A stretch of 64,000 nucleotides of DNA from Bilabrum cf. latius (lineage: Eukaryota): contig OZ237754.1 in the NCBI GenBank assembly GCA_965178125.1, forward strand, positions 62,001 to 126,000. Reading direction: 5' to 3'. A program made the position numbers and the translations under genes. The notes beneath the pieces are model-generated. The model did not search any database. It was not told the origin of the DNA and was given only the letters and a program-made list of their open reading frames with translations. Numbering within the stretch: the stretch's first letter is position 1; each line of letters opens with the position of its first letter. Positions 1 to 63,221 of the stretch are shown here, piece after piece.

Positions 1-383
1 CTCGGCTCACCACGCTGTAGGGTCGGAGTCTTCTGCTGAGCCAGGATTTTTTGCGCTGCTTCCGAAGATAGTGCACATGCCTACACTACTGCAGCCCTTC
101 CCCTGGCTCGGGCCGCGTCACCCATTCCCCGCTAGTCGGCCACTTCGTCTTGGGGAGGTACGGTGCTCCGCCTACGTTTTGGGCCCCGATGTCGTCCCTT
201 TTTGGCGCTCTGACTCCTGCTGCGACTCTTGTCCACCCGCACTCGCGCTACTGCTGCTGCTGCTGCTGCTGCTGGCCTTCGCTGACTACCGTTTTGCCGC
301 TGCCCCCGCTCCTCCAGCTGCGGCCCCATGCTCCTTTGCCACCCGCTTCGCTCGCTCCAATGCTGACTTGTCTATCGCGGCTG
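1..383 (-). CDS. Possible second ORF overlapping the end of the 118-2658 ORF and running off the window
   Basis: The frame of track ORF 132-329 is free of TAA/TGA from 383 to the left edge (TAG only). No homology recognisable. Confidence 0.25.
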
Positions 384-2658
384 TCACATCCTCCCACGCC
401 ATAGCGCTATGGTTGCCTGCCGGATTCAGTCCCAGTAATTCCCACGTGGGCCCCACCTGAGTCTGCGTCATCCGCAGCGGGGTCTCGTTCTCGCTCCGCA
501 ACTACCACAGTCGAAGCACCGCAGGAGTATCCATTCTCCCCACTGGTGCCACCCTATGTATCAAAATCATGCGCAGAGCAGTTGCTAACACGAAATGCTG
601 ACCCGTATTGGCTGTGTCCCCGTTGCCTCCACCTGCCGTGCGGACTGCTGCCGCATGAAGGACCATCCCCAAGCCCAAGAACATTCTTCGCACTGCAATC
701 TCCAACGCCTCGTGAAGCTTGCTCATTACTGCCCTGGCTTCCGCATGCTTATCCTGGTGCAGCAGTGTCGCAAGTGTGATAACCACCTTCAGCAACGACG
801 TGCTCCCTGCCACGACCCACTCGAGCGCCCCACACACCGATCTGGTCAATATCGTGGGTAATCGAAAAATGTTGCCTTGTTCCAGTTCTGCCACTCCCGA
901 CAACACGTGCTACCCGCACTTACTCGCAAATTGCCTGATCCCGTCCGGCATGAGCAAATCACCCGCCTCCTCCAGCACCGGTGCCACATGAAAGCTGCGG
1001 CCAGATCCTGACTCCCGGCGAAAACCAGCCGCACTCGCCATAGAAGCGAACATTATCTGCGCGGGGCGTTCAATCCGAAGCAACGAAATCTTTGCCTTGT
1101 CCGCACTCGTCAGCGCCACTGAGGCCAAGTCCTTAGCTCTCTCGCCTTCCTCCCCGAGTTCGGCCAAATACCGTGCACTGTCCCTAAATTGAAGCACCTC
1201 CTAAGACCGTACGGTGTCGTAGAACAAAGAGTCAACTCCCTTCGCCGTGGGAATGGAATTATGCACTTCCTTGGCGCCGTCTCCATCGTCTGCTCCGACC
1301 TGGCCCTGGTATGGTGACTTCTTGCAGGCGCCGGCTGACGACTTAATCGCCTGGGTGGAGTGCTCGGGCCGGGCATTTAACTCAAGCGCAAGGGCACGGA
1401 GCAACTACAACGTACCATTGGGCTCACCCGATGCCATGGCCGCAACCGCCTGTTGAATTCGCTTGTCGATCGCGTCACTCGCGGTCGCCTCTCCTGCTCC
1501 CGCGGATGCTCCCTCGACCTCTTGCTCGCGCCTTGCCGCCTTGGTGCGACGTTCCGAATCCGCCACAATGGCCTCCCAGGGAGCTTGTGCTTCCCCCACC
1601 TCTTCCGCTCTCCCCCTTTTTCCCAGCGTTGCGCCCGAGATGGTGCCCATCGACGCCTGCGCCCCAAACACCGCGCTGGCACCGCGGCTTGCCGTTGGAC
1701 CTCCCGCTGGTTTGCCACCCGCCCCAGCATCGGCCGCAGTCACTCCACCATGGCTGAATCCGCCCCCAAAATCAAAGAGGCCCAGCTCGCTCGGCGGATG
1801 GCCTGAGGTAGCAGTCGCCCCTGCACCGGCCCCCCCGCTTGGGGCAGGCAGTTTCCACCCAAACCCGCCACCGTCCATGATGCCCCGGCCCAGTGAGTGC
1901 GCTCCCATCGGCCCCCCGGCTACACGTTCAGGCCTTGACCCCGTGAATGGTGCTGTTGTTGATGCCCCGGATGGTACCGGGATCACCGGTGCTCCCCAGA
2001 GTGGGAGCACCCCATTGCTGCCCGTCGCATCTTGGTCTGAGTTTCCACCCGTCGCCGCGCTCGCCGACGAACTGCTGCATGTTGGCTTCGGCATCGCATG
2101 GATCAGCATGTTGGGCAACAGAGCATCGAACATTTCGTCGAGGAAGGGGATCGTCCACGGTGCCACCCGGGCATAGCCGAACAGGGCCGCACGTGCTGCC
2201 CACGCTGCCTGCTGTGGCGTTACACCACTCTGTAGTGGTTGCTGCAGGCATTTCCAGAGCTCACCATGGTCCTCGGGCATCAGATCGTCCTTTGAGAACC
2301 CTGCTGCCACTTCCAGAGCGCCACGCAGGCCCGATTCCACGTCTGGCGTCGTGGTCGGTTTGAACACGCCCATAACGGCAGCCCCTGCGCCCAGGGAAGC
2401 GACCGGCGTGTGGCCGCGTACGCAGCTGCCCAACAGAGCCCGCTGCGCATCTGCCCCTTCTTTGTTTAGCATGTTCACAGCCTCGCGTACGACAGGCTCC
2501 GAGAAGCTCGACATGTGTTCAACAGCCATACCTTGAAACACATCGAAAACACCACCCACAGCGTTCACCCTCCGCCTCACCGTTGGGGCCATACGAGTGG
2601 TCATTCGCGCCACGATCGCCCGGCTTTGCTTCCATTGCGCACTCTGCTGGCTGAGCAT
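118..2658 (-). CDS. Hypothetical 846-aa protein (possible retroelement Gag-like ORF1)
   Basis: Track ORFs 1405-2658, 1201-1404, 910-1197, 502-906 and 286-501 share one frame. They are separated only by TAG (1405, 1201, 910, 502, 286, plus 172), and the first TGA is at 118-120. No recognisable domain. Confidence 0.6.
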
Positions 2659-2732
2659 TATTTCCTTTATCTTCTTCTGAATTCCCCTAAGTAAAAATTA
2701 TTTCCTTTATCTTCTTCTGAATTCCCCTAAGT
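2657..2732. repeat. 36-bp direct repeat, two copies separated by AAAA
   Basis: ATTATTTCCTTTATCTTCTTCTGAATTCCCCTAAGT at 2657-2692 and 2697-2732. Confidence 0.95.
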
Positions 2733-3281: not shown

Positions 3282-6200
3282 ATGGGACAAGGAACTTCAA
3301 ATCACAGTAAAGAGCGAACAACTAGGACGCCTCGCGGTTCACACTCCAAGTCGTTGTCTCGGAGACGCAGCGAAGCATCGCCGCCGCAGTTGCACTCCCG
3401 TGGTGGAAGCTAGCCGCCGTCCCCTGCTGCAGTGCAGGGGCAACCACCCCATGGACTCAGTATTACAGCTCACTAGCATCTTCATGAGTACCGTGAGGGT
3501 GGTGCCACTCCTATCGGTGGCGACTCCAGCGACGAGGATGACGACTTCGCACACGGGGACTTGGGTGCTGCTTTCTAGGGGTTTGCAGAAAAGTGTAAGT
3601 TCGACGGATCTCGCTTTAGGTCATAATTCAGCATGAATGTTGCCTTCCTTGTCGCCTGAGGCCGTTGGCGCCCATCAAATTTCTCCGCATTCGAACAGAA
3701 TTGAACCTATGAATCTTTCAATGCTCGGCGACGCGCGCAGTCAATGACGGTGAACTAGTAACTCTTAAGGCAAAATTTAGGGATCTAGCCTATCGTAGTG
3801 GCCCTGGATGGGGCCATACGGTCGATAAAGACACCTTCTTAAAGTTTTTCCCGTGGCCGGGCCTTCTTGGTGGTGAGATATCGTGCATGAGTCGAAGCTG
3901 CTGGAGCACTGGGAACCCATTTTGCCCGTCAGTTCTTGCAAGTTGTTTTGAGTGTAGCAAGGAATGTATCTGTATATCCTTCCGGGCCAGTCAATCCTAC
4001 TGGAGCATCCCCCTTTAGTTTAGCGTTGCACGCTTGGTCTCTTGCTCGCAGAGCGCCTGTTTCAGCTGTTCGACAAGGCGGGCACCGGACGCATTAATTT
4101 TGAGGAATTTATCGCCGGGCTCGCTCTGTGCTGCAGGGGAGACACGGCCGAGAGGGCCCGGTTCCTGTTCGAAGCGCACGATCTGGCGGGCGACGGCGTG
4201 GTCAGCCGCAGCGAGCTCCGGACCCTGCTGAACCACTTGCCTCAGACGGTCATCCATGCGATGGACGAGGCCTCCAGAGAGAGGGAGCGCATCGACAAGA
4301 AGAAGGCCAAGGCCATCCGGCTCACTGCGGCCAGAGCACGCAGCGGGTCCATCGCATCGACGCGTGGGAGACGCAGGCGCTCCCGCATGGGCCGCAGGGG
4401 CTCCTCCATGGTCTCCATGGATTCCATGACCAGCGGGTCCATCGCGTCTTCTTCCGCTCCGGGCACACCGGTCTCGGCCGCGACCACCCCCACGGGCGCC
4501 GTGGGCAGGGCTCCCGCGCGACCCTCCCCCCTGCACCCCGGCACACGGGGGGGGCCCTCTGCGCTGGTGCCCGGGCATGCTGCGGAAAAGGGCACGGAGC
4601 ATGACCATGAGCTTGGGGGGGCAGCAGCACCAGGTGCTGGCAGTCCCTCGACCTCCCCCGAGCTGCACCCCGTCGGTGGGGTGGCGCACGCTCCCAGCGG
4701 CAAGACCCCGCTTCACCGGAGAGCCGCATCCGCCCCTCTTGCCCTGAGCGAGGGACAGGGACAGGTCCCCAGCTCGCAGGCCTCTGGAACCATGGCCCTG
4801 CCCCCGCCGCACCCACCGGGCACACCCGCTGGGACGGGGACAGGACCAGGGGCGCACCTGCCCAGGGTGCAGCAGCTCAAGCAGCAGGAGACGGGGGGGC
4901 GGGGCAAGGGCAAGGGGCTGGGGAAGGCCAAGGGCAAGAGCAGGCTGGCCCCGGATGGTGCGGACCCTGTCTTGCCTCGAAGCAGGGAACCGTCCGCAGA
5001 CGGCAGCAGCGCTGGCGAGCACAGCCCCGTGGACAGCGGGTACTCTCCTCGATCGGGAGACACGAGGGCCACCGACAGCACGCCGGTGGGCGATCACCCC
5101 TCGGGCGGGCTGGGGATGCCACACCTCTACGACAGCGACATGGATTCGGTTGCAACCGACGACCACGACACCCCGCTGCCTGGCAGGTACCACTCCCAGC
5201 GCATGGACTCTGGCAGGATCTCGGAGGCCGGCTCGCAGCTGGCGAGAGGGGATGGGCACGAGGACGGGCCCGGGTGGGAGGGCGGCCCCGACCTGGACCA
5301 CGGGCATGTTGGGGTGATGGAGGGCCGACTGGATCGGCTGGGCCGGATGCAGTCGCGGGAGGCCAGCGCGGACCGGCTTGGCGTGCAGCTGGCATCGGGG
5401 TCCGAGAGCGCCTCTGCAGAGGAGGGCGGGCCCCAGGGGAGCAGGCGGCGGGGGCACAGCCCGGTGAGCAGCGATGGGGGGCACGGGGGCCACGGGGGGC
5501 ACGGGATATCCAGCGATGAGGACCATCACCACCACGATCATCGCCACGCTGGTGGACCGGCCGATGCAGCAGGGGCAGACCATGGAGGCCGACTCAGTGC
5601 GCACAGCAGCGCCAGCAGCTCGCACGCCCGTGGGACGACTCCCAGCGGGCTCATGGGTTCGGCTCCACTGGTGGACCGTGTGGTGGAGCGGGTGTTCCGG
5701 CTAGCGCGACCCAAAGACAAGCGCCACATGATCTTCTCGGAGTTCAGCGCCTTCCTGGAGACAATGCCAATCCTGCCGCAGTTCCTGTCTTCCGTGTTCC
5801 CTTACGACCACCTGCGGGGAGCAGAGGCGGGCAGTGCCCTCCCAGGCGATCTGGGCAAGGCGCAGCACCGCCGCATGCTGCAGGAAGCCTAGGAGGAGGA
5901 GGAGGAGAAGGAAGGGGGAGGAGGGAGCTCCGGTGGTGCGAAGGGTGGGGCAGCGGGAACGAGCGAGCAGGGGCCCAGGGACGCGGAGCAGCCTGCAGCC
6001 GGGCGACTCCAGCCTCCGCTGCGGCCCTCCGCCGTGGTGCCTGCCCCCAACGGGGTGGCCCCGCGCACTGGCAGCAAGCTTAAGGCCCCTGTCCACGTGG
6101 ACCAGGGCAGTCCGCCCCAGGATCGGGCGGGCAGAGGCCTGGCCGGAGGCAAGTCCGTGGGCGGCAATACCGTGCCCAGCGGGTTGGCAGCCCCCACCAT

Positions 6201-9200
6201 GCAAGAGGAGGACTCCCCCGATGAGGGGGACAGCGAGGCTGGCGCGGGTGCAGCCGGCAAGCAGGCTGATGGCACCGGTAAGGGCGTCGGGGCAAGCACC
6301 AGCAGGTCCGGGAAGAGCTCGACCAAGAGCACCAGCACGAGCACCAGTACAGGCGCGGGCGCGGGCAGGGCAAGCGGCTCCCACCCCCCCTCCAGCCAGG
6401 GCAGCCCCTCGGGCCCGTCGGCCGCGCAGAAGGCAGCGCCTCGCAATGCGCCGGCCTTCCCGCCGCCCCGCACGCCCGCGGATGCCAGGCTCGCGGGGGC
6501 ACGGGCTGCTCGACTGGTCGTGGGATCGGGCCCGCAGCGGGCCGCCCTCGTGGCCGCGCTGGAGGGGGTGAGCCACGCCCCGGCGGCGCGCGACCGGCCC
6601 ATGTGCCTCGGCTGCTCCAGCTGCAGGTCGAGGCTGCGGTTCTGTCCCGCCACGGGGGCCCCCTACACGCGGCGGACCGAGGCCATGTTCCGGGCGGGGC
6701 AGGGGTGGACGCTGACGGTGACTGCGGCGCAGCGGGCAGCCATGGGAGCGGGGGCTCGGGAGGCGTATGTGCGGCACCTGTGGGCTGCTGACTGGCTTTC
6801 TGCAGCGGCGCGGGTGCCTCTGCGGGAGGCGGGCGCCGTGAATGCAGTGGCGCACGAGCACGGCCGGCGGGGTGCGCTGGAGGGACTGGCGGCCGACGGG
6901 GTGCTCGGGAAGGGCGTGTCGGGGGGTCTGCAGAAGGGCCCGGGCGCACAGGGGGCAAATGGGGGGGCCGGTGTCGCGGGGAACAGCGGGGCCATGGAGG
7001 ACGGGCAGCTGAGGCCGAGCCCTCTGGCCGTGTCACTCGGGCCCGGGGCGCAGCAGCGGGCGGGCGCTCGGCGTCCCCGTGGCGCCAGCGATGGCATGTC
7101 GGCGGGTGCCGCCCCGGGGCCGGGGGGCGGGCCCTCGGTGCAGGAGCGAGAGAGGGTGCTCTCCTTCGCGTCTGACCTGCAGTCGGCCGATGGGGACGCA
7201 TCGGTGGCAGCTCGCACCGCGCACAGCACTGACGACGAGAGGGAGAGGGAACGGCTGTTCCCTCCGATGGACGGGGCGCAGGGGCCCACCTCGCCGGACA
7301 CGAGCCCGCTGCTGGGTGCTGCCGCCCGCAACCGAGCCCCGCACTTCGCCATGCCGGATCTGGACCTCAGCCGGAGCCTGCAGCCGGGGGCGCCGCTGCT
7401 GCAGCTGTCCCCTCGGGCCGCGATGCTGCAGGCGGGCAGCGGAGGAGACGAGGATGGCACGCTCGACTCGCTGGCCCTGGCTGGCTTTAGCCGGGAGGGT
7501 GTGGGCGCGCTGGGCTCCAGTGCCACGGCAGAGCGGCGGGTGGAGGTGGACAGCAGCGACAGCGGTGACTCGGGCGGGTCTGCCTCCTCTTCCACCTCCT
7601 CCTCGGACGACGGCAGCGGTGGAAGCGAGGAGGACGACGAGGGGGAGGCGGACGAGCTGGCGGCTAGGAGGGAGAGGGCCAGGGAACAAGGCAGGGAAAG
7701 CAGCAGGACCAGCGTTGGGAAGGGAAGCAAGCGGCAGCGGAGGCTGAGAGCGAACGGCCGCAAGTCTCCGGGGCAAGCGCCCGCTCCTGTGGGGCCCTAG
7801 GGGTCGCTCTGGGCGAAGCAGGCCGCGGGGCATGCGGCTGAGTCCGCCGGAAGCGGCACAGGCAGCGAGCCAGGCCACTTTGGCAGGCAAGACACGCTCG
7901 GAGATGCAAAGGCGACCTCTCTATCGCACCACGTGGGCACTGCCCTGTCTAACTCAATGGGTGAGCTGCTGCGGGGGGAGGGGGCCGGAGAACAGGGGCA
8001 GGGTGGGGCCGGCGCAGGCGGAGAAGTGCGCACAGCAGTATTGAGCAGCAGGCAGAGCGGCAATTTCGAGAACGAAGAGGGCATCGGGCTGTCGATCGAC
8101 TCGGGGGCGGAGCCGAAGGGGGGGGGTGCAGCCGCGGGCGACAGCGAAGGAGAGGACCGGCCCCCTCGTGGGTCTCTCAGCTCGGAAGGGGCCAGCTCCC
8201 TCCCGCGTCTGGATGCCCTGAGGAGGGCGCCCAGCCTTGAGTTTGACCCTCTGGAGACTGGCAAGGCAGGGGGTGCACCCCGGGGGGCGCTGTCGCTGGA
8301 GCTTGGGCCTGCTGACGGATCGCAGGGGGGCACGGAGGGCGGGTAGGACGAGGACGAGGGTGAGGACGAGGGTGTGGAAGGGGGCAAGTCGCAGGGTGAC
8401 AGCCCTGGGTCTGGCAGGACATCCGAATCGCAGGGGGGGCTGGGCCTGTTGGCAGCTGGAGGGCCCTCCATGGAAGGCGGGCAGCGGTGGAGCAAGAGGA
8501 GCTCGCGCGGAAGAGCCATATCGGATGGAGGCAGCTCCGCCTTCTCGCCCACCACACCGGACCCGCGAGAGGACCAGGACGAGGTAGAGGGTGAGGGCAG
8601 TGGGCTGTGGGGCCGAAACAAGGACAAGGACAAGGGTAGGGAGAGGGAGAGGGCTGCGTCGGATGGCAGCAAGAGCGAAGGGACCCATGACGAGGACGAG
8701 GACGAGGACAAGGGGGCCGAGGCCGTGTCCAAGAGCTCGGCGGCCCCAGCAGCGACTAAACGCGCCCCGAGCGCCACCGCGTCGGGTGGGGTGATCCGCA
8801 CTCCGTACGGGGCAGCAACGGGTGGCCGGTACCAGTCGCTTGCCAGGGACCACCTCGATGGGGCGCTGCCTACCCCGGGGAAGGCGATCGGGGATGGGAG
8901 CGGGGTCCACAGCGGGGACAGCAGCCAGGACGCAGGCGCGGCGGGGCACGCACTCGGTGCGACTCGCGGGGCAATCAGTGACCGGGGCCAGGGCAGCAAT
9001 GGGGGTGTGGGCGGAGGCATGGCGCAGGAGGGCAAGGCCAGGGGCAGGGACGGGCTTCCGCCCAGTGGGCCACCGGCTGCCATGGCCAGCGTGACCACTC
9101 GTCACACCTTTTGCTCTCTGTGCGGCGCGGCCCACCGCTCCGACGACTGGCAGCCCACCGGCGGGCTGCTCCTCGTGCAGGCGCTCGAGGGCTTCTTGGC

Positions 9201-11562: not shown

Positions 11563-12584
11563 CGAGTATGTGGGTCCGTAAGGTGGTTATTATACGCCCA
11601 AAGTACGTTGAGATGAATCGAAATATGGCAATTCGCGCACTGTGGCTGGCCGTTCGGATGGACTTCACTAGCGGGAGCCTGCCGTCTGTGATAACGACAA
11701 TCACATCAGAATAATTGTGTCTGTACCGCAATGCAACAGCCGGACTTGAACCTGGATCGTGATCTCACCACGGCTTGCAGACCCTGCACCCATCCATCAC
11801 GCACCGTGTCGACGCTGGGGGCAAGCGGGCAAAAAGTGAGTCGTCATGATCGCCCCAAAGAAGACCACTCCAAGAATTGCAGGTGATAGAAGCCCATAGA
11901 CCGGCCATAATCCTGCGCACAACAGGACAGCTGCCAGGAACCCCGTGATCTACCCAAGCCACAGCGCGTTCGGATTGTACGCTTCCCACTCTAAATGAAC
12001 GTCTTCGACGTATGGTACCCAAACCACGAAATATAACATAACGCCAAATGATATTCCAAAGCAAGCGAGGCCAAGGTTGAACCACAGCCTGCGATGGGAG
12101 GTGATATGTCTGCTGAAGTAGCAGCGCTTAAAAAAAAATCAGAACCTTGGACGAATGCGGGCTTTTTCTAAATTTCTTACCTAGCGACATCGCTACTATG
12201 AATAATAACTTCAAATAACTTCGTGTAGTAGGCCAATGCAGCGGCTCCAATCACCCACAGCGCAGCCTGTACTTTCGTTGAAATCATATCGACCCGTTCC
12301 ATGCGCTTCTGCTGCTCCTACTAGTACTAAGCTCCTGCAGATGATCGATGTCCTGTTCTTCGCAACTACACGTACGGCTGTTCGGACATGATAAACGCCT
12401 AGAAGTTTTGCGCGTCCGCTGTTCGATGGCTTTCGGTTTCGCTTCTGAGAAAGTTCGCCACGATTCTTCAAGAAGTTCTGCTCTTTGCAACTAGTCTAGC
12501 ATCAGCATACATTCGAGGCTACTATTCGCACAGATATGTAATTGTTACGTATTGATACTGACAAGTGCCCGCACAAGGTCAGAG

Positions 12585-19317: not shown

Positions 19318-21021
<1,704 letters not shown>

Positions 21022-44445: not shown

Positions 44446-44652
44446 CCCGAGAATAATATACCTCCAATTCGCAAACGATGGGGAGGATACCTGCACAACG
44501 CTTGTAGGAAAGAATGATCCTACCGAAAATAATGTAGAAATAGCTAATTTATTGTGGATCGGTGCAGTCTGCTGGGAAGCGGAACCGCGATCGCAGACAT
44601 GATGCGCGGCGCCTTCCAGCTCGATAATTGGTCGCACAACACGATTGGGTCA

Positions 44653-47292: not shown

Positions 47293-47725
47293 TGTGGCCG
47301 CATGAGGCTGAATATGGTTACTGGTAGCAATGGTGCTGGTGCAGGACCATGGCCTGGTTGCGTGCACTTCAAGTTCCCAGCGAATCCTGCTTCTAAACTC
47401 CCAACAACGTGCAAACCAGGGCTCTGTCCGGCTCAATTGCGTTCGGCCTGGCAAATCTCCTGTTGTGCTATTTCTGTTGATGCCCACGAGCCGAAACAGG
47501 CGTGCTTCACAGTCATCAGAAGCACGAGCCAAGAGAAGCACAAAGCGCGTAAGAACAATCGTGATGCTTTGCAGCTAATGTATCGCGCACTCTGGGGCAA
47601 TGCATCGCTCTATCAATAAATGTGTACATTTGTATTTGCAGGCTCGTTCTAGAGGGCGCTAGCCTAAAACCAATCGTCCAACTGGCCGGTTGACACGCCG
47701 TAGACCCGACTCTTCGGAGACAAGA

Positions 47726-53312: not shown

Positions 53313-55244
53313 ATGAGAAGAATCGCTACTACCCAGCACTACGTGCGATTGTATAGAGGAGTATCCAGGAGCGTCGCGAGTCGAATGCGGCTGCGGCTCT
53401 AGCCGCTTCCTCAAGCTCTGATTGGCATGATGCGACCGATGTCATCTGCCGCCGCCCTGAGCCCTACCGCAATGAATGCCACTGAGGGCCAGCTTGTCTC
53501 GCTCCGTGGTGTCGTATCCAAGGTGATCTACAGCTCTGCAGACGGCGGCTATGGCATTGTGCAGCTCAAGGTCCAGTCGTACGGCGACGCCTAGGTCGCG
53601 CAGGACCGCCTAGCTTCCCAAATGCAAGGGGTAAATGCATCTGCCTTCGGGATTGCCGGCACTGCCGCGCAAGGCCCGGGAACACCTGGTGGCGAGCCAG
53701 CCGAGCGGCAGCTGGCGAGCCCGAACGAATCTGTCACCGTGCAGGGGGGACCGCAGGTCGCTTCCATGCAAAAAGGAGAACTAGTCAATATTGAGGGTAG
53801 CTGGTAGAAGCATCGCCGCTACGGGATGCAGGTGAAAGCCAGTGCGGTTCGCGCAACCCCACCAGATTCAGCCGACGCTCTTGTTCGATTGCTGGGCAGC
53901 GGATCATTCAAAGGGATCGGACCGGTGCTAGCAGGGCGGCTTGTGGAGTAGCTAGGCTCGAGTGGTGCGGTAAAAGCGCTTGGGGAGGGGGATCATGCAG
54001 CCCTTGCCCGTGTTCGCGGGATCAGCGCTCGCATTGCGCGCGAGGCAAGTGCTCGGTGGCGGGCGCGCTCGTCAGGTGCCGAGTTCGAGGGGCTGTGCGC
54101 GCGCGTCGGCCTCAGCGCATCTGCCACTGCCCGCCTTCGGCAGGCGTTTGGCGGGTCAAGCGAGGCGATGGAGGCGCTTCGGCGAGACCCGTACGGCGCG
54201 CTAGCGAGGGTCAAGGGGCCCGGCCTGGGCCTGGCAGTTGGAGACAAGATGGCAAGGGCGCTGCACGCGGGAGGCGATGGAGGCCAAGATAATACCCAGT
54301 CGTAGCAAGCAGCAGAGGAGGTGACAGACCTCTCTAGAGGCTCCCCAGGTGCCGGCATGGAGGGGGGGGCAGGGGGCGCCACCAACCACATGCACCAGGG
54401 GGGCGCAGAGGGAACACACAAGGGGACGACACCTCAACCGAACCGAGGACGAGGGCAATCGCAGGAAAGCACCGCGACCGTCGCTCCGGATGCGCCCGCT
54501 CCTGGTGACCCGCTGTACGGCCCCAGGGTCCGGTCCGCGGTGCTGCAGGAGGCCAGGCAGGGCATGCTCCGGGCGGGGCACTGCTTCCTGCCCGCAGGGG
54601 AGCTCCTGCGGCTGGGGGCAAAGGCGGTGCTGCCGGGAGCATGGCGGGGGAGAGCAGCACGCAAGAGCAGCGGAGCGAGCGGCGGTGGGGATGGGGATGG
54701 GGATGGGTTGGTTCCGCTCGCACAGGTGCTCATGGAGGGGGTCCCGAGCGCCTAGCCTCGCGACCAGCAGGTCGGCTCCGACTCGGAGCCGAAAGTACCC
54801 AGTGCTGCGCGCGATGAAGACGCGGCGGGTCTGATTCGTCGGGCGATGCTGCAGGTGCTCGAGGCGGAGGGTGTGGTGGAGGTTGCTGGCCCTGGTGGAA
54901 GCACAAGCGGGGATGGGGCGATCGACCTGGACCAGGCCGTGGATGGTTCCTCGGGCAAGGTCAGATCGCTGGCAGCGAGCGCAAGGGGCGTTCTGGATGG
55001 AGTCAGGGGAGGGCAGCTGCACGTGCAGGCAGTGATGGGGGGAGCAAGGGACAGCACCGACGAGTCGGGGGCCGCTGTGATCGCGGTGTCCTTGGCAGGC
55101 ACACGGCGCACCGAATAGGCTGCAGCAGCCGCGGTGGGGCGGTTGGTGGGCTCGTTTCTGGAGTCGGGAGCTCGATTGAGGACGCACGGGGGCACCCAGA
55201 CGATCCTCGCCGGGGATGCGACCAGCAAGGAGGAGGGAAAGCAG

Positions 55245-55300
<56 letters not shown>

Positions 55301-58088
55301 GGGGTAGGAGCAGCGCGATGGTGCCTAGCCGAGGGCATCGGGCAAGGGCAAGGACAAGGGTGAGTCAAGGGAGCTCACCGAGGAGCAGAGGGCAGCAGTG
55401 GACACGGCGCTCAAGTCTCCCATCGCGGTCATCACCGGTGGTCCGGGGACAGGCAAGACCACCGCAGTGAGGGCGGTGGTGCAGGCCTGGCTGAGGCAGG
55501 GGCGGCGGGTTGCGCTGGCCTGTCCCACCGCCCGCGCGGCGCATCGACTGAACGAGGTGTGCAGCGGCATCTTGAGCGCATTTCAGGCCGAAATGGCAGC
55601 CTCGGCAAAGGGCATGCGCGGGCAGGGTCCGGCGGTCGCCCTCGCCCAGGCACCGCACGCTGTCACCGTGCACCGGCTGCTGGGTTACGGCATCAGCTCC
55701 GAGTCCCCAGCGGGACTGGCCGCTCAGGCCCGGGCCGATGCACTGGCTCGCGGCGAGGCCGTGCCTGCCTTGTCCGGTGAGAATGCGGGTCCAGGATCAG
55801 GGTTGAGGCGGCGGGGCCGCGGACAAGCGGACAGCTCGACGCTGCCGCAGGTAGGTGCCCTGTCTCTCGGGAGACAGCTCGGCGGTGGGGGCGTGGGCAT
55901 GGGCATCGCTGGCGGTTAGGGCACCATGGGGGATGAGGGCGGGCCAGTGGTGGATCTGGATGGAGAAGGAGCGTATAAAGGTGTGGGTGGGATGGAAGGC
56001 ATGCGGGATGGCTATGGTGGTGCGCCTGGCAATGGAGGACTAGGTGTGGGGCTGCCAGAGCAGACGGGGGGTGGGGAGGGGGAGGAGGAGGATGACGGGG
56101 CGGCGGAGATGTCGATGGATGCTGCTGCTGGGGTTGTACCTGGTTCACAAGCGGGAATAAAGGGCAAAGGCAAAGGTAAAGGAAGCTCCCACGGGCCGTT
56201 CCTGTTCCATGCCGACAACCCGCTGCCCTACGACGCGGTGCTGGTGGACGAGGCCAGCATGCTGGACCTGAACCTAGCGCGGGCGCTCATCGAGGCGCTG
56301 CCCGTGCCCAAGGTGGCGGACGGGGAGGTACCGGGGGCACAGGAGGGGGTCAATCCAGGGAACAAGCGAGGCGCCCCCAGCCTCATCCTGGTGGGCGACC
56401 ACGATCAGCTGCCCAGCGTGGCGCCGGGGCGGGTCCTGCGGGACATGGTCAGCGCTGGGGAACAGAACCAGCAGGATGGTGGCGCCGGTGTGACGAGCGA
56501 TGCATCCGTTCAGTTCCCAGTGGTGCCTGTGGCCCGCCTGCAGCGCATCTTCCGGCAGGCGGCTGCCTCCTCCATCGTGAGGAACGCGCACGGCGTGAAC
56601 GAGGGCAAGGGCCTGGTGGCCGTGCACGAGCTGCCCCTTGATCTAGGCTCTCGGTAGGCAGCCGGGGAGCAAGAAGGAAGCGGGGCCGCGGCCGGCAAGA
56701 GCAAGTGGCTGCTGCCTCTGCCGAGCGAGACGGAAGAGGCGCTGAGGGCAGGTGTGCGCGCGGCCAGGACAGGCGGGGCTGCACCCGGTGGCCCTGCAGC
56801 CCCCGCCCCCACTTTCCCCTCCCTGACCGAGTTCCCACCTCCCGAGATGGACACACTCTGGATCGACGCCGAGGACCCAGCAGGTGCCGCCCGCAGACTT
56901 CGAGAAGACGTGCCTGCCCTGGTGCGAGCCATGGGGCTGGAGCCAGAGGAGCACCTGCTCGTCATGTCGCCCATGCGGAGGGGGCCTCTGGGCACCAACC
57001 AGCTGAACGAAATGCTGCGGCCCGTGCTGCGGAAGCGCGATGCTCGCGGGGTGCAGAGAGATGCCGATGGCGCTCCCTCGGCAGGCCGATGGGGGCAGGA
57101 TTCCGCACCCGCGGTGGGTGTGGGGGACCGCGTGATGCAGAAGAAGAACAACTACGACTTCGGGGTGGTGAACGGGGACGTGGGACACGTGGCAGATGTG
57201 GGCACGGACGGGTCAGTGCTGGTTGTGTTCACCTCGCCTGCCCCCCAGATCGACGGGGTACCCCAGGGCGGGGGGGGCATGTTCGGGGGGCTGTTCGGGC
57301 ACGACATGCGTACGGTGCGGTATTCCGCGGCAGAGGCGCGCAGGCAGCTGGAGCTGGCCTACGCTGTGACCGTGCACAAGGCGCAGGGGAGCGAGTGGCC
57401 AGTAGTGGTCGCATGTGCGCACACCTCCCACGCGCCCATCCTCACGCGCGGCCTGCTGTACACGGCGGTGAGCCGCGCCCAGCGTCTCCTCGTGGTGGTT
57501 GGCTCCAGGCGAGCCGTGCGCATGGCCGTGAACAAGGACGCAGAGACGAGGAGGCACACCATGCTGGCGGGAGACGTGCAGCGGGCCGTGCTGGGTGCCA
57601 TGGCCGGGGCGGGGAGGCCCCTGCTAGAGGACGACACGGGTGCCAGTGCCAGTGCCAGTGCCAGTGCCAGTGGCAGCAGTGCAGCTGCCACGGGGCTGTC
57701 GCCACTGGCAGCCTACGCCAGCATGTGCGGGGCCATGGGGGCCGGGGAGGGGGAGCACAACTTCGTATAGAGGGTGGTAACAATCGATGACGAGATCAGC
57801 AGGGCCAGGGAACAAGGCGGGGGCGCCGGCCTGGGACTGGCAGCGGTGCCCGCGGCGGACCTCGTCGGTTCCACGCCTCCTATTCAATCGAATGGCCCGC
57901 GCGGGGACAGCCGGGCAATGCATGGAATGGAAGACCAAAGGAGAATGCCGATGGGTCTTTCAGGCCTGTCACTGCGGCGGAAGGCGCAGTCCCTGCTGAA
58001 TGCAGACGTGGACGCGGCTCTGGTGAGGCGGGGCCAGGAGAAGGCTGCAGGATGGGCGGTGGAGGTGCGCGCCGGTGAGAGGCAGTAA
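53313..58088 (+). CDS. recD2: RecD2-like SF1B DNA helicase with putative mitochondrial presequence (~1,591 aa)
   Basis: One frame, 12 TAG, TAA at 58086. RecD2 N-terminus GVVSKVIY..GYGIV..IEGSW.KHRRYGMQ..GSGSFKGIGP..DPY; helicase motifs ITGGPGTGKT, TVHRLL, VDEASM, LVGDHDQLPSV, RIFRQ, GDRVMQKKNNY, AYAVTVHKAQGSE, LLYTAVSRA. Confidence 0.9.
55245..55298 (+). repeat. (CATGGG)x9 microsatellite encoding a His-Gly tract
   Basis: Direct read, in the RecD2 frame. Confidence 0.95.
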
Positions 58089-59275: not shown

Positions 59276-59425
59276 TGTTCTTTGCATCTATGTCGCGCAC
59301 GCTATCGGATCTTGGTAGCGAGCAATTACTGCTTTCCTCCGAGTCGGGGAGCGTAGCACGGTGTCGGCCGATGATCGGCCACTACCCATCTCTCTACTAT
59401 TCGACAAGCAATTCGCTGGGCAAAG

Positions 59426-60983
59426 ATGAAAAGTTTTGCGTGTTTCGCTACATTCGTTGTGACCGCTGCGGTAGGATCCTCGCAGCATGCCTCTGGATCC
59501 TATCCCGTGCGTCCCGATTGGCAGCAAGTCGTCGCGATCAGCCGAAGCAAGGCGAAACAACACAATCTCCCTACTTCCGGTCCCACACCAGGGCCTACTG
59601 GATTTGCCGTATCTCCGGCGTAGTTTGGCGGAGATCCGCTGGGCCAGAAGGACTCCACTGCGGCTGTTCGTGCAGCTGTTGCAGTGTGCGTCAACGTCTC
59701 CCAAGTAGAGCCGCTGGACTTCCCCGTCGGCACCCGCGATGCCGCTGGTTGCACGGTGGATTTGCAAGGTGGTGAGTATCTCATCAGCGACACGATTCAA
59801 ATCCCTGCGTTTGTCGGAAACATGCAGATGTCCCGCGGGTCGCTGCGCGCATCCTCATCATTCAAGTCGGGGGCCTTCATGGTGGTGGTTGGGGTGGAAG
59901 GAGCGTGTAAATTCCCTTAGGGGTCATGTAATGTGGACATCAATTTCCCAGACCTCTTTTTGGACGGATCCCGCGTGGCGCACGGCCTGCTTTAGATCAA
60001 CAGCGTCATGGGCACAACGGTGGGCCCTGGGACGTACATGCTAAACTTTACAAGCGCTGGCATCGAGGTAAATGGTGGCCATGAAGTTATGATCTTGGAG
60101 ACGTGGCTCGGCGAGACGAACTGGAACCACCACTTCACCACGGACGCGCCTCCGGTCGCGACCGCCATCGCAATCAACAGCAACGACCACTACATCCAGA
60201 ACTCTGTCGTTTTCTCCTCTCTCGTGGGTCTCGACATGAGGGGCGCTGCGAACTACGTGAGAAGAATGGGCGCAGGTTGGAAGCTCCCATTCTATCTGCG
60301 ATGTGCCACTGCACCATGCCGCGGCGCGGAAGCCCACACATCCTGTACGCTTGTCTTTTGTTCTGTTCAAACCCATGCAGGTGTCTGGCCTCCACGTCTG
60401 GTTTCCGTGGAACGCAGCTGATCAGTTCGGGGCCACTGCATTCCAGATCTCGGGTGGCCAGAACCGCTTCTCCGGCTGCTACATCGACTGCTCCAAGGCA
60501 GTGATCGCGCAAGGGGCGGGGCTCGTAGAGTTCTCGGACGGTTTTTCGCTCGGCGGGATCGGCATCGTGCTCGATGGCGCCAGCTTCGAGAAGCTGCAGA
60601 TCTACGACAACGAGTTCCAGGGCGGATCGGGCCCCGGGATCGTCGTGCCCTCTGGCGGTCAGCAGAACGTGACCCTCGTGGACTCCAGGTTCCAGAACAA
60701 CCTATTTAACGGCAAGCAGGGCAGCGCCACCAGAGTCACAAAGACGGTCGCTTCCACCACACCGACCACGAGCTGGAAGGCCAGCTTCTGCCAAGAGATC
60801 GTGGGCAAGGTCCAGTCGGTGCAGTTCAGCGTCACCGCAGACACCGGCTTCCCGAGCGTGGTGGCGCGGCCAGTCGCCGCCGACGGTTGCACCGTGACGC
60901 TCGAGTCCCAGACTGCCTTTACCGGGTCCATCACCGTGTCGGTGGACTCGAGCACGTATTCGAGCAACTGCGGGCTCTGTTGA
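59426..60983 (+). CDS. Secreted pectate-lyase-superfamily beta-helix protein (QRT3-like)
   Basis: join(59426..60256,60381..60983). Signal peptide; [TAG]FGGDPLGQKDSTAA, VDLQGGEYLISD, GSLRAS, GGHEVMILETWLG, NDHYIQNSVVFS, CYIDC. Three TAG; TGA stop. Confidence 0.8.
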
Positions 60984-61094
60984 ACGCATAGTCAGAGGAA
61001 GCTAGCTCTGTAAGCGGTGGGTTCTTGCTAGCTAGACTTTCCCGCCTGCGCTTCATTTGCTTCTGGTTCGATATGCCACGCATCTCCCATCGGT

Positions 61095-63221
61095 TCACAC
61101 CTTGCTGCTCGACTCCTCTACCGCACTAGCACGAGCTATTTCCAATGCGCGCCCCGCATCGTCAGCCTCCTTCTTGGTCTGCACCTATAACTCAGGCTCA
61201 GGCTCCCACCCGCACCACGCCAACACGAGCGCGAGCGCAAGCGCTGCTCCGTAGGCGGCTGGCAGCAGCCCAAGCGCTGCATCGTACGCGCCCTCGCTCC
61301 TTTTGACGTCCTTGCCATCGGCCCCCGGCCCATCGACGGCATCCAGGACCGCACCCACCGCGGGCTGCAGCACGGCCCCGCCCACGATCATGCCCGCGTT
61401 GACCACGGCGATCACCACCCCGCGGTGGGGGGCCGCCCACTCCGCCTTGGTGGCCGCCCTAGTCAGCCGAAACACCGCGGGAATCACGGTGGCAGACCCG
61501 AAGAGGAAGAGCACCACGCCCATGGCCGGCCTCCCCAGCGCATCCACGTATACGAGTGCAGCCGAGGACAGGCCCCCCAGAAGAGCCGCCCCCGCTGCCA
61601 CCGCGTGCATGCTCCAGGGGGCTCGGTCCAGCAGCGCGCCCACCAGCGGCCCCGACAGGCCCCAGCCCACAAGATACACGGACATGAGGACAGACGCCTG
61701 GGCCCCATTTGCGCCCTTGGTGTCCTTGAGGAACGAGTTGCCCCACAGCGACCCGAAGGTTAGGAAGGGACCGACAATGAGGATCCCATAGGTGAAAATG
61801 AGCATCACCCTGCCGCCCAGAAGCAGCCCGATCGTCCCCATGAGCCCCTCGCCCTCCAGACCGCAGTCGCTGGTGCCGTCCCCCGCGCACCTCGAGCCGC
61901 AGGTGGAGACCCGGCCCGCTGCCGTGCTCATGCCCTTGTTCTCCGCTGCTGCATGTGATGGAGGCACCCCACCGCTTCGATGCGGCTGTTTCTCCTCCTC
62001 CTCTTCCTCCCTCTAGTTGGAGGGTAGCCCTGGGATGGCGGCAGGGGAAGGAGGCCAGGCGATCGGCGGGCTGCCCTGCCCGGACTGGACGAGGGGAGGC
62101 GTGGCATCTGCCTGCACGAGCGGCACCTGGCTGGGGGTGCGGCTGGGTCCTGAGGCTGCGGTGTAGGGTGAGGATCCTTGTCCCACGGGCTCCGCACCGG
62201 CCTCTGACTTGTTCTTCAAGTTCGCGTGCCCCGGGGTGCCGCCACCCACTGCCTGGTTCCCTGGACCGCTGGCATGCTCCACTGCCTGGTTCCCTGGACC
62301 GCTGGCATGCTCCACTGCCTGGTTCCCTGGACCGCTGGCATGCTCCACTGCCTGGTTCCCTGGACCGCTGGCATGCTCCACTGCCTGGTTCCCTGGACCG
62401 CTGGCATGCTCCGCTGCCTGGTTCCCTGGACCGCTGGCATGCTCCGCTGCCTGGTTCCCTGGACCGCTGGCATGCTCCGCTGCCTGGTTCCCTGGACCGC
62501 TGGCATGCTCCGCTGCCTGGTTCCCTGGACCGCTGGCATGCTCCGCTGCCTGGTTCCCTGGACCGCTGGCATGCTCCGTTATGTCACTGCCCTCGGCAGA
62601 GGCTGTGCGGCACACTGGCAGGCAGCCAGCGTGGATCGACCACAGCACTAAGAATGTAGCACCAATGCCGACAGGAAATACAGAGCTCCACCCAAGCACC
62701 GGTCTCCAGCCCAAGTTTTCCACAAGGACCGCAAGCGGTGCCTGGGCGAGGAGGCTGCCAGCGAGCCCGAACATTATGCCCGCACCGGTCATTGTGCTAG
62801 CAAGGCCGCTTGCTTTGAAATGCGTCTCGCTGAGCGTCACAACTCCAATCCAAGCTCCACCGACACCGGCGCCGACTAGTCCTCGAGCAGCTGCCGCCAG
62901 TGCAAAGGAGCTCGTGGAGGCAAACCCCAAAGAACCAAGCGCTGCAGCGAACGCACAGCCTGCAAGTACGGGCAGGTGTCCGAAGCGCTGAAAGGCCCAC
63001 CCACATGGCAGCTAGACTGCAATATACGCATAGAAATACGTGGAGGAAAGAACGCCAACGGCGGAGCTATCAATTTTGTAGGCGAGCTGCAGGTCGTCCG
63101 ACACGACCGAGGGCGCCACTCGCTGGAAGAAACTATACGTAAAGAAAAGGGATGCAACCAGCCATGCTACCCAAATATCAAGGGGTGGGAGGTTCGATGT
63201 CGAGCTGCTCGTGGCTGCCAT
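61095..63221 (-). CDS. Major facilitator superfamily transporter (~708 aa)
   Basis: WLVASLFFTYSFFQRVAPSV, GVLSSTYFYAYIAV[TAG]LPCG..RFG, ARGLVGAG, AQAPLA..GWR, FGSLWG, GGAVLQP. TAG at 63012, 62013 and 61185; TGA at 61095. Confidence 0.9.
62246..62575 (-). repeat. 33-bp coding minisatellite x10 (EHASGPGNQA[A/V])
   Basis: CC[A/G]CTGCCTGGTTCCCTGGACCGCTGGCATGCT; five A copies followed by five G copies. Confidence 0.97.

What the first reader, a model, noticed from the sequence alone, without database searches (positions are those of the whole stretch)
118..63221. Nuclear genetic code reassignment: UAG encodes glutamine
Seen in sequence: about 23 genes on both strands are interrupted in frame only by TAG (roughly 100 codons by manual tally). 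The frame continues with normal coding character to a TGA or TAA. Core conserved genes (enolase, RPC40, Rab, CGI121) are among them. Established knowledge: the positions in Rab DTAGQE, enolase QEFMILP, RPC40 PGQEI and MFS Y..QIP are conserved Gln. Inference: TAG is a regular Gln codon in this genome. This predicts a tRNA-Gln(CUA) and an eRF1 that ignores UAG. The gene content does not look like a ciliate or fornicate, so this may be an undescribed independent reassignment.
Basis: partly seen in the sequence, partly recalled or inferred. Interest (0 to 1): 0.97.

Follow-up and report, generated by a model that had tools for sequence, protein, structure and literature searches.

The report
Stop codon UAG encodes glutamine
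In this GC-rich microbial eukaryote the stop codon UAG sits inside most genes and is read as an ordinary glutamine codon, a rare change of the genetic code that here seems to belong to a lineage where it has not been reported.

Summary
In 26 gene models (17,130 codons) there are 99 in-frame TAG but no in-frame TGA or TAA. The two other frames hold 239-260 TGA and 40-50 TAA. With TAG read through, enolase, a Rab, an MFS transporter, a kinase, a GH31 hydrolase and a RecD-like helicase become full length.

TAG falls on the invariant Gln of enolase (113 of 113 homologues), on the catalytic Gln of Rab, and on a column that is Q in 146 of 151 MFS stretches.

A 64%-identical relative from a metagenome (L001) also carries 14 in-frame TAG. 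Seven align to CAG or CAA in the window and one to a shared TAG.

Intron-less, hence RNA-derived, contigs from other studies keep TAG unchanged.

TAA (4) and TGA (25) end the genes, so the code equals NCBI table 15.

No tRNA-Gln(CUA) or eRF1 could be examined, because no genome is held.

The organism could not be placed. It does not resemble the known users of this code (Iotanema and three ciliates): it is GC-rich, has multi-gene contigs, and uses UGA as its main stop.

Verdict: a new member of a known kind, probably an independent origin.

The parts
118..2658 (-). ORF of 846 aa with no Pfam family; 6 in-frame TAG; ends in TGA
3964..11562 (+). EF-hand / PH / protein kinase gene, 2532 aa; 5 in-frame TAG, all outside the kinase domain; ends in TGA
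11800..12467 (-). TMEM128-family gene in two exons (intron about 12088-12179). One TAG lies in the conserved exon; further TAG lie in the 5' exon.
   Evidence: (joint 12087/12180)
12585..13529 (-). Rab GTPase with exons 13289-13529, 13041-13181 and 12585-12922. TAG at 13335-13337 is the catalytic Gln of WDTAGQE; a second TAG is at 13150-13152. Ends in TGA.
13666..14586 (+). ORF of 306 aa; 3 TAG, all inside contigs of runs X5-X7
15021..15807 (-). Abhydrolase_2 (acyl-protein thioesterase-like) domain part; no TAG. The rest of the ORF down to 14341 is doubtful.
15906..16739 (-). ORF of 277 aa, basic with an RGG tail; 3 TAG; ends TAA followed directly by TGA
16875..19124 (-). FAD-binding oxidoreductase-like ORF, 749 aa; 4 TAG
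19318..21021 (+). Enolase: exon 1 at 19318-19365, intron 19366-19671, exon 2 at 19672-21021. TAG at 19837-19839 is a variable column. TAG at 20155-20157 is the invariant Gln of QEFMILP. Ends in TGA.
21149..24685 (+). ORF of 1178 aa with no Pfam family and a 12-residue tandem repeat; 13 TAG; ends in TAA
25032..26426 (+). p25-alpha (TPPP) protein with two domains; no TAG; 5' intron at 24898-25007
26685..28050 (-). Swi3/Tipin-like gene, probably two exons (27385-28050 and 26685-27242, intron 27243-27384); 5 + 3 TAG
   Evidence: (joint 27242/27385)
28208..30062 (-). RMD1-3 family gene: main exon to 29532, intron 29533-29629 (GTAAGT..CAG), upstream exon with 2 TAG. Ends in TAA.
30139..34782 (+). 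Two-repeat Ion_trans channel, 1547 aa; 8 TAG. The TAG at 32752-32754 is shared with relative L001. Ends in TGA.
35033..35935 (-). ORF of 300 aa; 1 TAG
36123..37298 (-). Secreted protein with an EGF domain and GH43-like features, 391 aa; no TAG
38121..40385 (+). ORF of 754 aa; 5 TAG, three of them in the last 27 codons
40508..41848 (-). Monoglyceride-lipase-like Hydrolase_4. The TAG at 40922-40924 aligns to Gln of human MGL.
42580..44445 (-). ORF of 621 aa with an 8-residue repeat; 9 TAG. In two repeat units TAG stands where the other units have GAG.
44599..47292 (+). GH31 glycosidase of bacterial type, 897 aa; 6 TAG at variable columns
47600..49278 (+). ZIP transporter region with two ORFs (47600-48457 and 48544-49278); 3 + 1 TAG
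49423..50631 (-). RPC40/Rpb3-like RNA polymerase subunit (N-terminus lies in an upstream exon); 2 TAG
51143..53251 (+). Protein with PDZ and PA domains and a J-like C-terminus, 702 aa; 3 TAG
53313..58088 (+). RecD2/YrrC-like helicase with long low-complexity inserts, 1591 aa; 12 TAG; ends in TAA
58301..59275 (+). CGI-121 (TPRKB) gene; 2 TAG in the open frame; ends in TGA
59426..60980 (+). Beta-helix protein read in two frames (intron or frameshift not resolved); at least 3 TAG
61095..63221 (-). MFS_1 transporter with an 11-residue repeat in the central loop; 3 TAG. The TAG at 63012-63014 sits on a column that is Q in 146 of 151 aligned stretches.

Best explanation
The window is nuclear DNA of a GC-rich, gene-dense, intron-poor eukaryote. 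Its cytoplasmic translation reads UAG as glutamine, while UGA (the main stop) and UAA (the minor stop) still terminate. This is the same code as NCBI table 15.

Shown here:
- TAG is a frequent in-frame codon, about 5.8 per 1000 codons and about 15% of Gln codons.
- It stands at conserved Gln positions.
- It survives in spliced mRNA.
- It is interchangeable with CAG and CAA between two related species.
- TAA and TGA never occur in frame.

Inferred from how the other lineages with this code are thought to work:
- A tRNA-Gln with anticodon CUA, one mutation away from tRNA-Gln(CUG), pairs with UAG but not with UAA.
- The glutaminyl-tRNA synthetase accepts that tRNA.
- The N-domain of eRF1 has lost recognition of G at the third stop position but still recognises UAA and UGA.
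For: 1. Frame statistics. There are 99 in-frame TAG, 0 TGA and 0 TAA in 17,130 codons of 26 models. Off-frame counts are 260/239 TGA, 40/50 TAA and 88/90 TAG.
2. GC3 is unchanged across internal TAG (0.670 against 0.675) but falls to about 0.5 after terminal TGA and TAA alike.
3. Pfam domains span TAG codons in enolase, GH31, Hydrolase_4, MFS and RecD-like.
4. Conserved columns:
   - Enolase aa164 is Q in 113 of 113 homologues. I aligned 113 of the 120 listed and dropped 7 outside 400-520 aa.
   - Rab aa65 is the Q of WDTAGQE in both PDB alignments shown, out of 436 matched sequences.
   - MFS aa70 is Q in 146 of 151 aligned stretches from the best 150 of 4,702 hits; 4 are L and 1 ends there.
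   - Hydrolase_4 aa309 is Q in the three human MGL alignments shown.
5. Relative L001 (5.6-kb metagenome contig, 56% GC, 64-69% protein identity) has 14 in-frame TAG in a 1,326-codon ORF that ends in TGA. Their partners in the window are CAG x6, CAA x1, TAG x1, and GAG, GAC, GAT, GGG, GCT, AGG once each. In columns with at least 7 of 10 identical neighbours the partners are CAG 3, CAA 1, TAG 1, other 2. One more L001 TAG aligns to a window Q in the neighbouring RMD1 exon.
6. P0197 is 93% identical to the MFS N-terminus and ends exactly before TAG70. That is what a standard-code gene caller would produce on a close relative.
7. RNA. Contigs of runs X5, X6 and X7, from two studies other than the DNA source, lack introns at GT..AG sites that the DNA run X1 keeps. 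They cover the Rab and enolase TAG codons. No run showed any differing letter over 12000-31999. The listed pieces (32 of 263) cover 15 of the 38 TAG in that stretch.
8. The base after internal TAG (G 36, C 29, A 17, T 8) resembles that after CAG (G 195, C 161, A 55, T 38). It does not resemble the base after the real stops (A 8, C 7, T 7, G 3).
9. TAA is not a sense codon. Reading through TAA splits no coding ORF: the 4 candidates all lie in other frames or antisense to annotated genes. If TAA:TAG followed CAA:CAG, about 29 in-frame TAA would be expected; 0 are seen.
Against: - No tRNA(CUA), eRF1 or peptide was seen. None could be looked for, since there is no tRNA in the window and no genome is held.
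- Most TAG codons lie at variable columns that say nothing about the residue: all 6 in GH31 and 10 of 12 in RecD-like.
- Enolase aa58 is K in 104 of 113 homologues and Q in only 6.
- In the repeat of ORF 42580-44445, TAG stands where sister units have GAG, which is Glu.
- 6 of the 14 L001 TAG align to residues other than Gln.
- 9 TAG lie in the last 30 codons of six ORFs, against about 4.6 expected. The 108 codons behind them have GC3 of 0.51, like untranslated sequence. So UAG could still terminate some genes.
- All of this rests on one 64-kb window and one 5.6-kb relative.
Confidence: 0.9

Rival explanations
1. Dual-meaning UAG. It is glutamine inside genes but still terminates a minority of genes at their 3' ends, as in the context-dependent codes of Condylostoma, karyorelicts or Blastocrithidia (for UAA).
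For: - 9 TAG fall in the last 30 codons of 6 ORFs, against about 4.6 expected from uniform spread (positions).
- The pooled tails behind them have GC3 of 0.51 (n=108 codons), against 0.56-0.81 in the bodies of the same genes.
- The tail of ORF 21149-24685 scores like untranslated sequence: codon log-ratio -0.67, with controls at +0.51 for coding and -0.28 for UTR.
- ORF 42580-44445 has two adjacent TAG 19 codons before its TGA.
Against: - The excess is small.
- Tail scores are mixed. Those of 38121-40385 (+0.49) and MFS (+0.29) look coding, and three are intermediate.
- The base after the near-end TAG is G in 6 of 9, like sense TAG and CAG and unlike real stops, where G is 3 of 25.
- Every gene whose C-terminus can be judged ends at TGA: Rab with its CC motif, and the ion channel, which is conserved with L001 to the last residues.
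Confidence: 0.12
2. Both UAG and UAA encode glutamine (NCBI table 6, as in many ciliates, hexamitins, oxymonads, some ulvophytes and Amoeboaphelidium). UAA is merely rare because the genome is GC-rich.
For: - This is the commonest variant nuclear code (PMC11687900 Introduction).
- TAA is the rarest stop triplet in the window, with 196 + 166 occurrences on the two strands.
Against: - There are 0 in-frame TAA in 17,130 codons, against 40 and 50 in the other frames.
- No coding ORF is split only by TAA.
- The 4 ORFs that end in TAA lose GC3 behind it (0.50, 0.53, 0.60, 0.42), just like the TGA-terminated ones. One TAA is followed directly by TGA.
Confidence: 0.03
3. UAG is a sense codon but for another amino acid: Glu as in peritrichs and Blastocrithidia, Leu as in the rhizarian exLh, Ser as in Scotinosphaera, or Lys.
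For: - In a repeat, TAG replaces GAG.
- Enolase aa58 is mostly K.
- 3 L001 TAG align to D or E.
- 4 of 151 MFS stretches have L at the TAG column.
Against: - The three near-invariant columns are all Gln: 113 of 113, 146 of 151, and the Rab catalytic Gln.
- 7 of the 13 informative L001 TAG pair with CAG or CAA, where the protein's Gln content is 4%.
- The Gln of the enolase active site and of Rab switch II are catalytic residues (established knowledge, recalled).
Confidence: 0.03
4. No code change. The TAGs are assembly or sequencing errors, pseudogene lesions, or sites corrected in the RNA by U-to-C editing or splicing.
For: None found. It is kept only because most TAG were not individually seen in RNA.
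Against: - Four independent runs agree with the window at every base of 12000-31999.
- Spliced contigs keep the Rab and enolase TAG.
- A different species (L001) has the same habit and shares one TAG.
- TGA and TAA never interrupt the same frames.
- 22 of the 26 refined models carry TAG (13 of 17 Pfam-supported and 9 of 9 without Pfam), essential ones included.
Confidence: 0.01

Closest known systems
Nuclear code of Iotanema spirale (Fornicata): UAG = Gln, with UAA and UGA as stops (Panek et al. 2017, PMC5304391; abstract and section 9 read)
   Same: Same codon table. UAG is decoupled from UAA. The expected mechanism is the same: tRNA-Gln(CUA) plus an eRF1 blind to UAG.
   Different: - In Iotanema UAA is the dominant stop; here UGA ends 25 of 29 genes.
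- Iotanema's nearest studied relatives keep the standard code (PMC9161772, passages). Here a relative only 64-69% identical shares the change.
- This organism is GC-rich with multi-gene contigs. Iotanema is known from a transcriptome only.
- No phylogeny links or separates the two here.
Ciliates with UAG = Gln only: Hartmannula sinica, Trochilia petrani and Protocruzia tuzeti (McGowan et al. 2024, PMC11687900; abstract, Introduction and Discussion passages read)
   Same: Same reassignment, with UAA kept as a stop. UAG is in widespread use as a sense codon.
   Different: - According to that abstract, UAA is the preferred stop there.
- The window is 63% GC, carries more than 26 genes on 64 kb on both strands, and has 92-306 nt GT..AG introns.
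- From recall, that architecture does not fit the gene-sized macronuclear chromosomes of phyllopharyngeans.
- Top named enolase relatives are placidid stramenopiles and streptophytes, not ciliates.
NCBI translation table 15 ('Blepharisma nuclear'; also used by some phages, per the tool text and the PMC9523058 listing)
   Same: It is the formal table that translates this window correctly.
   Different: It is a table, not a lineage. The phage users are unrelated systems.
UAR = Gln codes (table 6): many ciliates, hexamitin diplomonads, oxymonads, some Ulvophyceae, Amoeboaphelidium protococcarum
   Same: Stop-to-Gln through a tRNA one mutation away from a normal tRNA-Gln. UGA is the remaining main stop.
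   Different: UAA is also Gln there. Here UAA was tested and is not used in frame.
Other UAG-only reassignments: rhizarian exLh (Leu), three uncultivated phyllopharyngeans (Leu), Scotinosphaera (Ser)
   Same: UAG is decoupled from UAA in a nuclear genome.
   Different: A different amino acid is encoded.

Membership tests
UAG = Gln nuclear code with UAA and UGA as stops (table 15 type) | In-frame UAG in many conserved, expressed nuclear genes | tested here: met
   There are 99 TAG in 26 models, and 13 of 17 Pfam-supported genes carry one. Spliced contigs carry them too.
UAG = Gln nuclear code with UAA and UGA as stops (table 15 type) | UAG columns correspond to glutamine in homologues | tested here: met
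   Enolase 113 of 113, MFS 146 of 151, the Rab catalytic Q, human MGL Q, and L001 TAG pairing with CAG or CAA 7 times. Many other columns are variable and uninformative.
UAG = Gln nuclear code with UAA and UGA as stops (table 15 type) | UAA and UGA are not used as sense codons and end the genes | tested here: met
   There are 0 in-frame TAA or TGA, against 40-50 and 239-260 off frame. 25 genes end in TGA and 4 in TAA. GC3 drops after both. No ORF is split by TAA alone. The sample is one window.
UAG = Gln nuclear code with UAA and UGA as stops (table 15 type) | UAG never terminates translation | tested here: inconclusive
   There is a slight excess of TAG near ORF ends, with tails of low GC3. 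The +4 context of those TAG looks like that of sense codons.
UAG = Gln nuclear code with UAA and UGA as stops (table 15 type) | A tRNA with anticodon CUA and glutamine identity | not testable with these tools
   No tRNA was found in the window or in L001. No genome is held.
UAG = Gln nuclear code with UAA and UGA as stops (table 15 type) | eRF1 N-domain altered at the positions that read the third stop base (GTS, TASNIKS, YxCxxxF) | not testable with these tools
   The eRF1 gene is not in the window and there is no way to reach the rest of the assembly.
UAG = Gln nuclear code with UAA and UGA as stops (table 15 type) | Gln found at UAG positions in peptides | not testable with these tools
   This needs proteomics.
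UAR = Gln code (table 6) | UAA used in frame as Gln | tested here: not met
Lineage of a known UAG = Gln user (Iotanema, Hartmannula, Trochilia, Protocruzia) | Phylogenetic placement within Fornicata or Ciliophora | tested here: inconclusive
   The enolase tree is unresolved: the query has a branch of 0.3 and best identity 74% to a placidid. The GH31 and RecD-like searches gave only unnamed or bacterial relatives. There is no rRNA in the window. Stop usage and genome architecture argue against membership.

The most novel reading that the evidence does not exclude
This is an undescribed, independently arisen UAG-to-Gln nuclear code in a poorly sampled, GC-rich, flagellate-type eukaryote lineage that is neither ciliate nor fornicate. 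The lineage holds at least two species: the window's organism and the metagenome relative L001. It would be the first such code in which UGA rather than UAA is the main terminator. UAG might also keep a residual terminator role at some gene ends.
Probability: 0.5. Interest if true: 0.85.

Novelty: new member of a known kind. Interest (0 to 1): 0.72.

Why it matters
Changes of the nuclear genetic code are rare. Cases where UAG and UAA part ways are rarer still: the papers read here name about ten lineages.

A further, apparently independent origin in a GC-rich genome is informative for three reasons.
- Simple codon-capture reasoning expects UAA, not UAG, to become scarce under GC pressure.
- UGA, not UAA, is the working terminator here.
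- Two diverged species are already in hand for comparison.

The organism must also own a release factor that tells UAG from UAA and UGA, and a natural glutamine amber suppressor with a matching synthetase. Both are of practical interest for amber-codon-based genetic code expansion in eukaryotes.

There is a practical consequence as well. Any annotation of this genome under the standard code will truncate most of its proteins. P0197 is an example already sitting in public protein collections.

Tried and rejected
- Whole genome: none is held. So there was no genome-wide tRNA, eRF1, rRNA or Codetta-style test.
- tRNA and ncRNA: ARAGORN found none in the window or in L001. Rfam at gathering threshold found none.
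- A genome-contig scan with the channel alignment found no relative.
- The first try of the metagenome scan met a busy machine and was repeated, as the message allowed.

**RNA runs**
- The look-up of sequencing runs listed no RNA holder on record.
- The library type of X5-X7 is a guess by the tool. X5 is marked 'probably DNA' and also holds an unspliced contig over the enolase intron. Only the intron-less contigs are taken as RNA-derived.

**Taxonomy, not resolved**
- Enolase best hits are 71-74% identical (Placidida, Suigetsumonas, Chara, land plants), and the tree is unresolved.
- GH31 hits are bacterial or unnamed. One cluster member is labelled Picozoa and one Mastigamoeba-like.
- RecD-like gave 4 unnamed hits.
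- Cluster look-ups gave no useful names.
- The atlas on two TAG-free ORFs gave only family names. The nearest cluster of the EGF protein is 'commonest Cercozoa', with phylum known for 5 members. That is a weak lead.
- No TGTAA or AATAAA enrichment lies behind the stops: TGTAA behind 4 of 22 genes, AATAAA behind 0 of 22. This gives no sign of a chlorophyte-type poly(A) signal.

**Uninformative or inconclusive analyses**
- ORF length alone is not proof. Reading TGA as sense also lengthens ORFs, through shadow frames.
- GH31 and RecD-like TAG columns were uninformative.
- The near-end TAG analysis was inconclusive.

**Literature**
- Seven searches found no report of a GC-rich non-ciliate with UAG = Gln.
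- Subscription journals are not covered. Supplements were closed, so the eRF1 alignment of PMC5304391 (Additional file 6) was not seen.

**Not used**
- Structure prediction, fold search and complex prediction. No open question needed them.

Full report
**What the window is**

The 64 kb are 58-72% GC in 4-kb bins. They hold no tRNA or other Rfam RNA. With TAG read as sense they resolve into a dense row of eukaryotic genes on both strands:
- an EF-hand/PH/kinase protein
- TMEM128
- a Rab
- an acyl-protein-thioesterase-like hydrolase
- enolase
- a two-domain p25-alpha protein
- a Swi3/Tipin-like protein
- an RMD1-3 protein
- a two-repeat voltage-gated-type channel
- a monoglyceride-lipase-like hydrolase
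- a GH31 glycosidase
- a ZIP transporter
- RPC40
- a PDZ/PA protein
- a RecD2/YrrC-like helicase
- CGI-121
- an MFS transporter
- about nine ORFs without a Pfam family

Contigs from public runs laid on 12000-31999 show short canonical introns of 92-306 nt with GT..AG ends. They occur in TMEM128, Rab (two), enolase, p25-alpha, Swi3 and RMD1.

Enolase starts at an ATG at 19318. Sixteen codons, which include the usual ITKIHARQIF start, are split from the rest by a 306-nt intron.

This is nuclear DNA of a compact, GC-rich eukaryote.

**The observation**

Under the TAG-sense reading, 23 of 26 long ORFs contain TAG: 103 codons in 17,394. 22 ORFs end in TGA and 4 in TAA.

After two corrections of the models, the coding frame holds 99 TAG, 0 TGA and 0 TAA in 17,130 codons. 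The two other frames of the same DNA hold 260/239 TGA, 40/50 TAA and 88/90 TAG. TAG is therefore not avoided in frame at all, while the other two stops are avoided completely.

Third-position GC is the same before and after internal TAGs (0.670 and 0.675). It drops to about 0.5 behind the terminal TGA or TAA.

13 of 17 Pfam-supported genes and 9 of 9 others carry TAG. TAG is 11% of Gln codons in the first group and 22% in the second. Its share falls weakly with GC3 (Spearman -0.39, p = 0.047).

ORF length alone would not prove the point. Reading TGA as sense also lengthens ORFs, through shadow frames.

**Which amino acid**

I translated TAG as X so that searches were not biased.

Conserved columns:
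- Enolase aa164 lies on the active-site Gln of QEFMILP. It is Q in 113 of 113 homologues (113 of the 120 listed were aligned).
- Enolase aa58 is a variable column: K 104, Q 6, R 2, T 1.
- The Rab TAG is the switch-II Gln of WDTAGQE in both PDB alignments shown.
- The MFS TAG at aa70 is Q in 146 of 151 aligned stretches from the best 150 of 4,702 hits. Four are L and one protein ends there.
- The lipase-like TAG aligns to Gln of human monoglyceride lipase.

Uninformative columns:
- All 6 TAG of GH31 are at variable columns.
- 10 of the 12 TAG of the helicase cannot be aligned with confidence.

One observation points elsewhere. In an 8-residue repeat of ORF 42580-44445, TAG stands where sister units have GAG.

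**A relative with the same habit**

One scan of JGI metagenome contigs with the channel protein found a single relative, L001. It is 5,621 bp and 56% GC, and the proteins are 69% identical in the pairwise alignment.

- Its orthologue is open over 1,326 codons only if 14 TAG are read through, and it ends in TGA.
- The 14 TAG pair with these window codons: CAG x6, CAA x1, TAG x1 (shared, window 32752-32754), and GAG, GAC, GAT, GGG, GCT, AGG once each.
- In columns whose ten neighbours are at least 70% identical, the partners are CAG 3, CAA 1, TAG 1, other 2. The channel is only 4% Gln.
- At well-aligned Gln sites the two species show CAG/CAG 10, CAG/CAA 7, CAG/TAG 3, CAA/CAA 2, CAA/TAG 1, CAA/CAG 1 and TAG/TAG 1. 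So TAG behaves as a third synonymous Gln codon.
- The neighbouring RMD1 exon is syntenic and gives one more pairing of an L001 TAG with a window Q.

A protein in the public collection, P0197, is 93% identical to the MFS N-terminus and stops exactly before TAG70. That is the signature of a standard-code gene call on a close relative.

**RNA**

Four runs were laid on 12000-31999.
- The DNA run of the probable source (X1) matches throughout and keeps the introns.
- Runs X5, X6 and X7, from two other studies, contain contigs that skip the introns at GT..AG.
- Their depth varies about 50-fold between genes.
- No run shows a single differing letter.

The intron-less contigs cover both Rab TAG (all three runs) and both enolase TAG (X6 and X7, spliced at 19365/19672). 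Listed pieces of these runs cover 15 of the 38 TAG in the stretch; only 32 of 263 pieces were listed.

The tool does not have the library type on record and marks X5 'probably DNA'. I therefore count only the spliced contigs as RNA evidence. For those four codons, editing and splicing-out are excluded.

**UAA and UGA**

- 25 genes end in TGA and 4 in TAA.
- Allowing TAA as sense joins no two coding pieces. The four candidates are other frames or antisense shadows of annotated genes.
- GC3 falls behind TAA stops as it does behind TGA stops.
- If TAA were Gln in the CAA:CAG proportion, about 29 in-frame TAA would be expected. None is seen.

The code is thus UAG = Gln with UAA and UGA as stops, which is NCBI table 15.

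**An open point: does UAG ever terminate?**

- Nine TAG lie in the last 30 codons of six ORFs, against about 4.6 expected.
- The 108 codons behind them have GC3 of 0.51.
- Their codon-usage scores are mixed: one tail looks untranslated, two look coding, three are in between.
- The base after these TAG is G in 6 of 9. That is like sense TAG and CAG and unlike true stops.

I regard a residual terminator role as possible but unsupported.

**Mechanism (inferred)**

To keep UAA as a stop, the decoding tRNA must carry anticodon CUA. That is one change from tRNA-Gln(CUG). The synthetase must accept it, and eRF1 must stop recognising UAG. This is the argument made for Iotanema, whose eRF1 has a T32G change in the GTS motif (PMC5304391, section 9).

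None of these parts could be examined here.

**Comparison and novelty**

According to the papers read, UAG = Gln with UAA kept as a stop is known in four organisms: Iotanema spirale, Protocruzia tuzeti, Hartmannula sinica and Trochilia petrani (PMC5304391; PMC11687900 abstract, Introduction and Discussion passages).

- In Iotanema and in the phyllopharyngeans, UAA is the main stop. Here it is UGA.
- Iotanema's studied relatives keep the standard code (PMC9161772 passages).
- The aphelid Amoeboaphelidium reads both TAG and TAA as Gln (PMC6299283 passage).

The organism itself could not be placed.
- Its enolase is at most 74% identical to any collected sequence, and its position in the tree is unresolved.
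- Other genes gave only unnamed or bacterial relatives.
- The only lineage hints are weak: placidid or streptophyte-like enolase, and a Cercozoa-labelled cluster for one protein.

Seven literature searches found no matching report.

I therefore file it as a new member of a known kind. It is very probably an independent origin shared by at least two species. Whether it is already in print cannot be decided without the organism's name.

Noticed in passing
window 30139-34782 and L001 1590-1770: The ion-channel orthologue of the relative L001 has an intron of roughly 180 nt at a place where the window's gene is continuous (LLQ|VRFMGP). So this is an intron gain or loss between the two species. The divergent RMD1 neighbour is syntenic in both.
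   Followed up: partly
window 19318-19671: Enolase begins with a 16-codon first exon followed by a 306-nt intron, the longest seen here. The in-frame ATG at 19666 just before exon 2 is intronic, so a naive ORF call gives a wrong start.
   Followed up: yes
window 21021-21149: Only 127 nt separate the enolase stop from the next ORF's ATG, and one contig of run X5 spans both genes. Intergenic spacers are very short, so UTRs of neighbours may overlap.
   Followed up: no
window 44599-47292 and 53313-58088: The GH31 glycosidase and the RecD2/YrrC-like helicase have mainly bacterial or unnamed metagenomic relatives (best 40% and 38% identity). The helicase has a basic N-terminal extension and very long Gly/Ala-rich inserts. 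They may be old transfers from bacteria, and the helicase may go to an organelle.
   Followed up: partly
window 22829-22918 / 23400-23600, 42580-44445, 61095-63221: Perfect or near-perfect coding tandem repeats occur in three genes: a 12-residue unit (about 6 copies) in ORF 21149-24685, an 8-residue unit (about 8 copies) in ORF 42580-44445, and an 11-residue unit (about 10 copies) in the central loop of the MFS transporter. Assemblies of the runs break at the first of these.
   Followed up: no
window 58758-59453 (-) against 58301-59275 (+): A 231-aa ORF with 6 TAG on the minus strand is only the antisense shadow of the CGI-121 gene. In this GC-rich DNA, long antisense ORFs are common and inflate naive gene counts.
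   Followed up: yes
window 59426-60980 (+): A right-handed beta-helix protein is read in two overlapping frames (59426-60421 and 60261-60980). An unrecognised intron or a frameshift lies between them.
   Followed up: no
protein P0197 (public collection): A 128-aa predicted protein is 93% identical to the MFS N-terminus and ends exactly at the TAG. It also starts in what is 5' UTR here. Proteins of this lineage are already stored truncated in public collections.
   Followed up: partly
window 42580-44445 (-), codons 601-602: Two adjacent TAG codons lie 19 codons before the TGA of this ORF, followed by an alanine run. This may be either Gln-Gln or a tandem terminator.
   Followed up: partly
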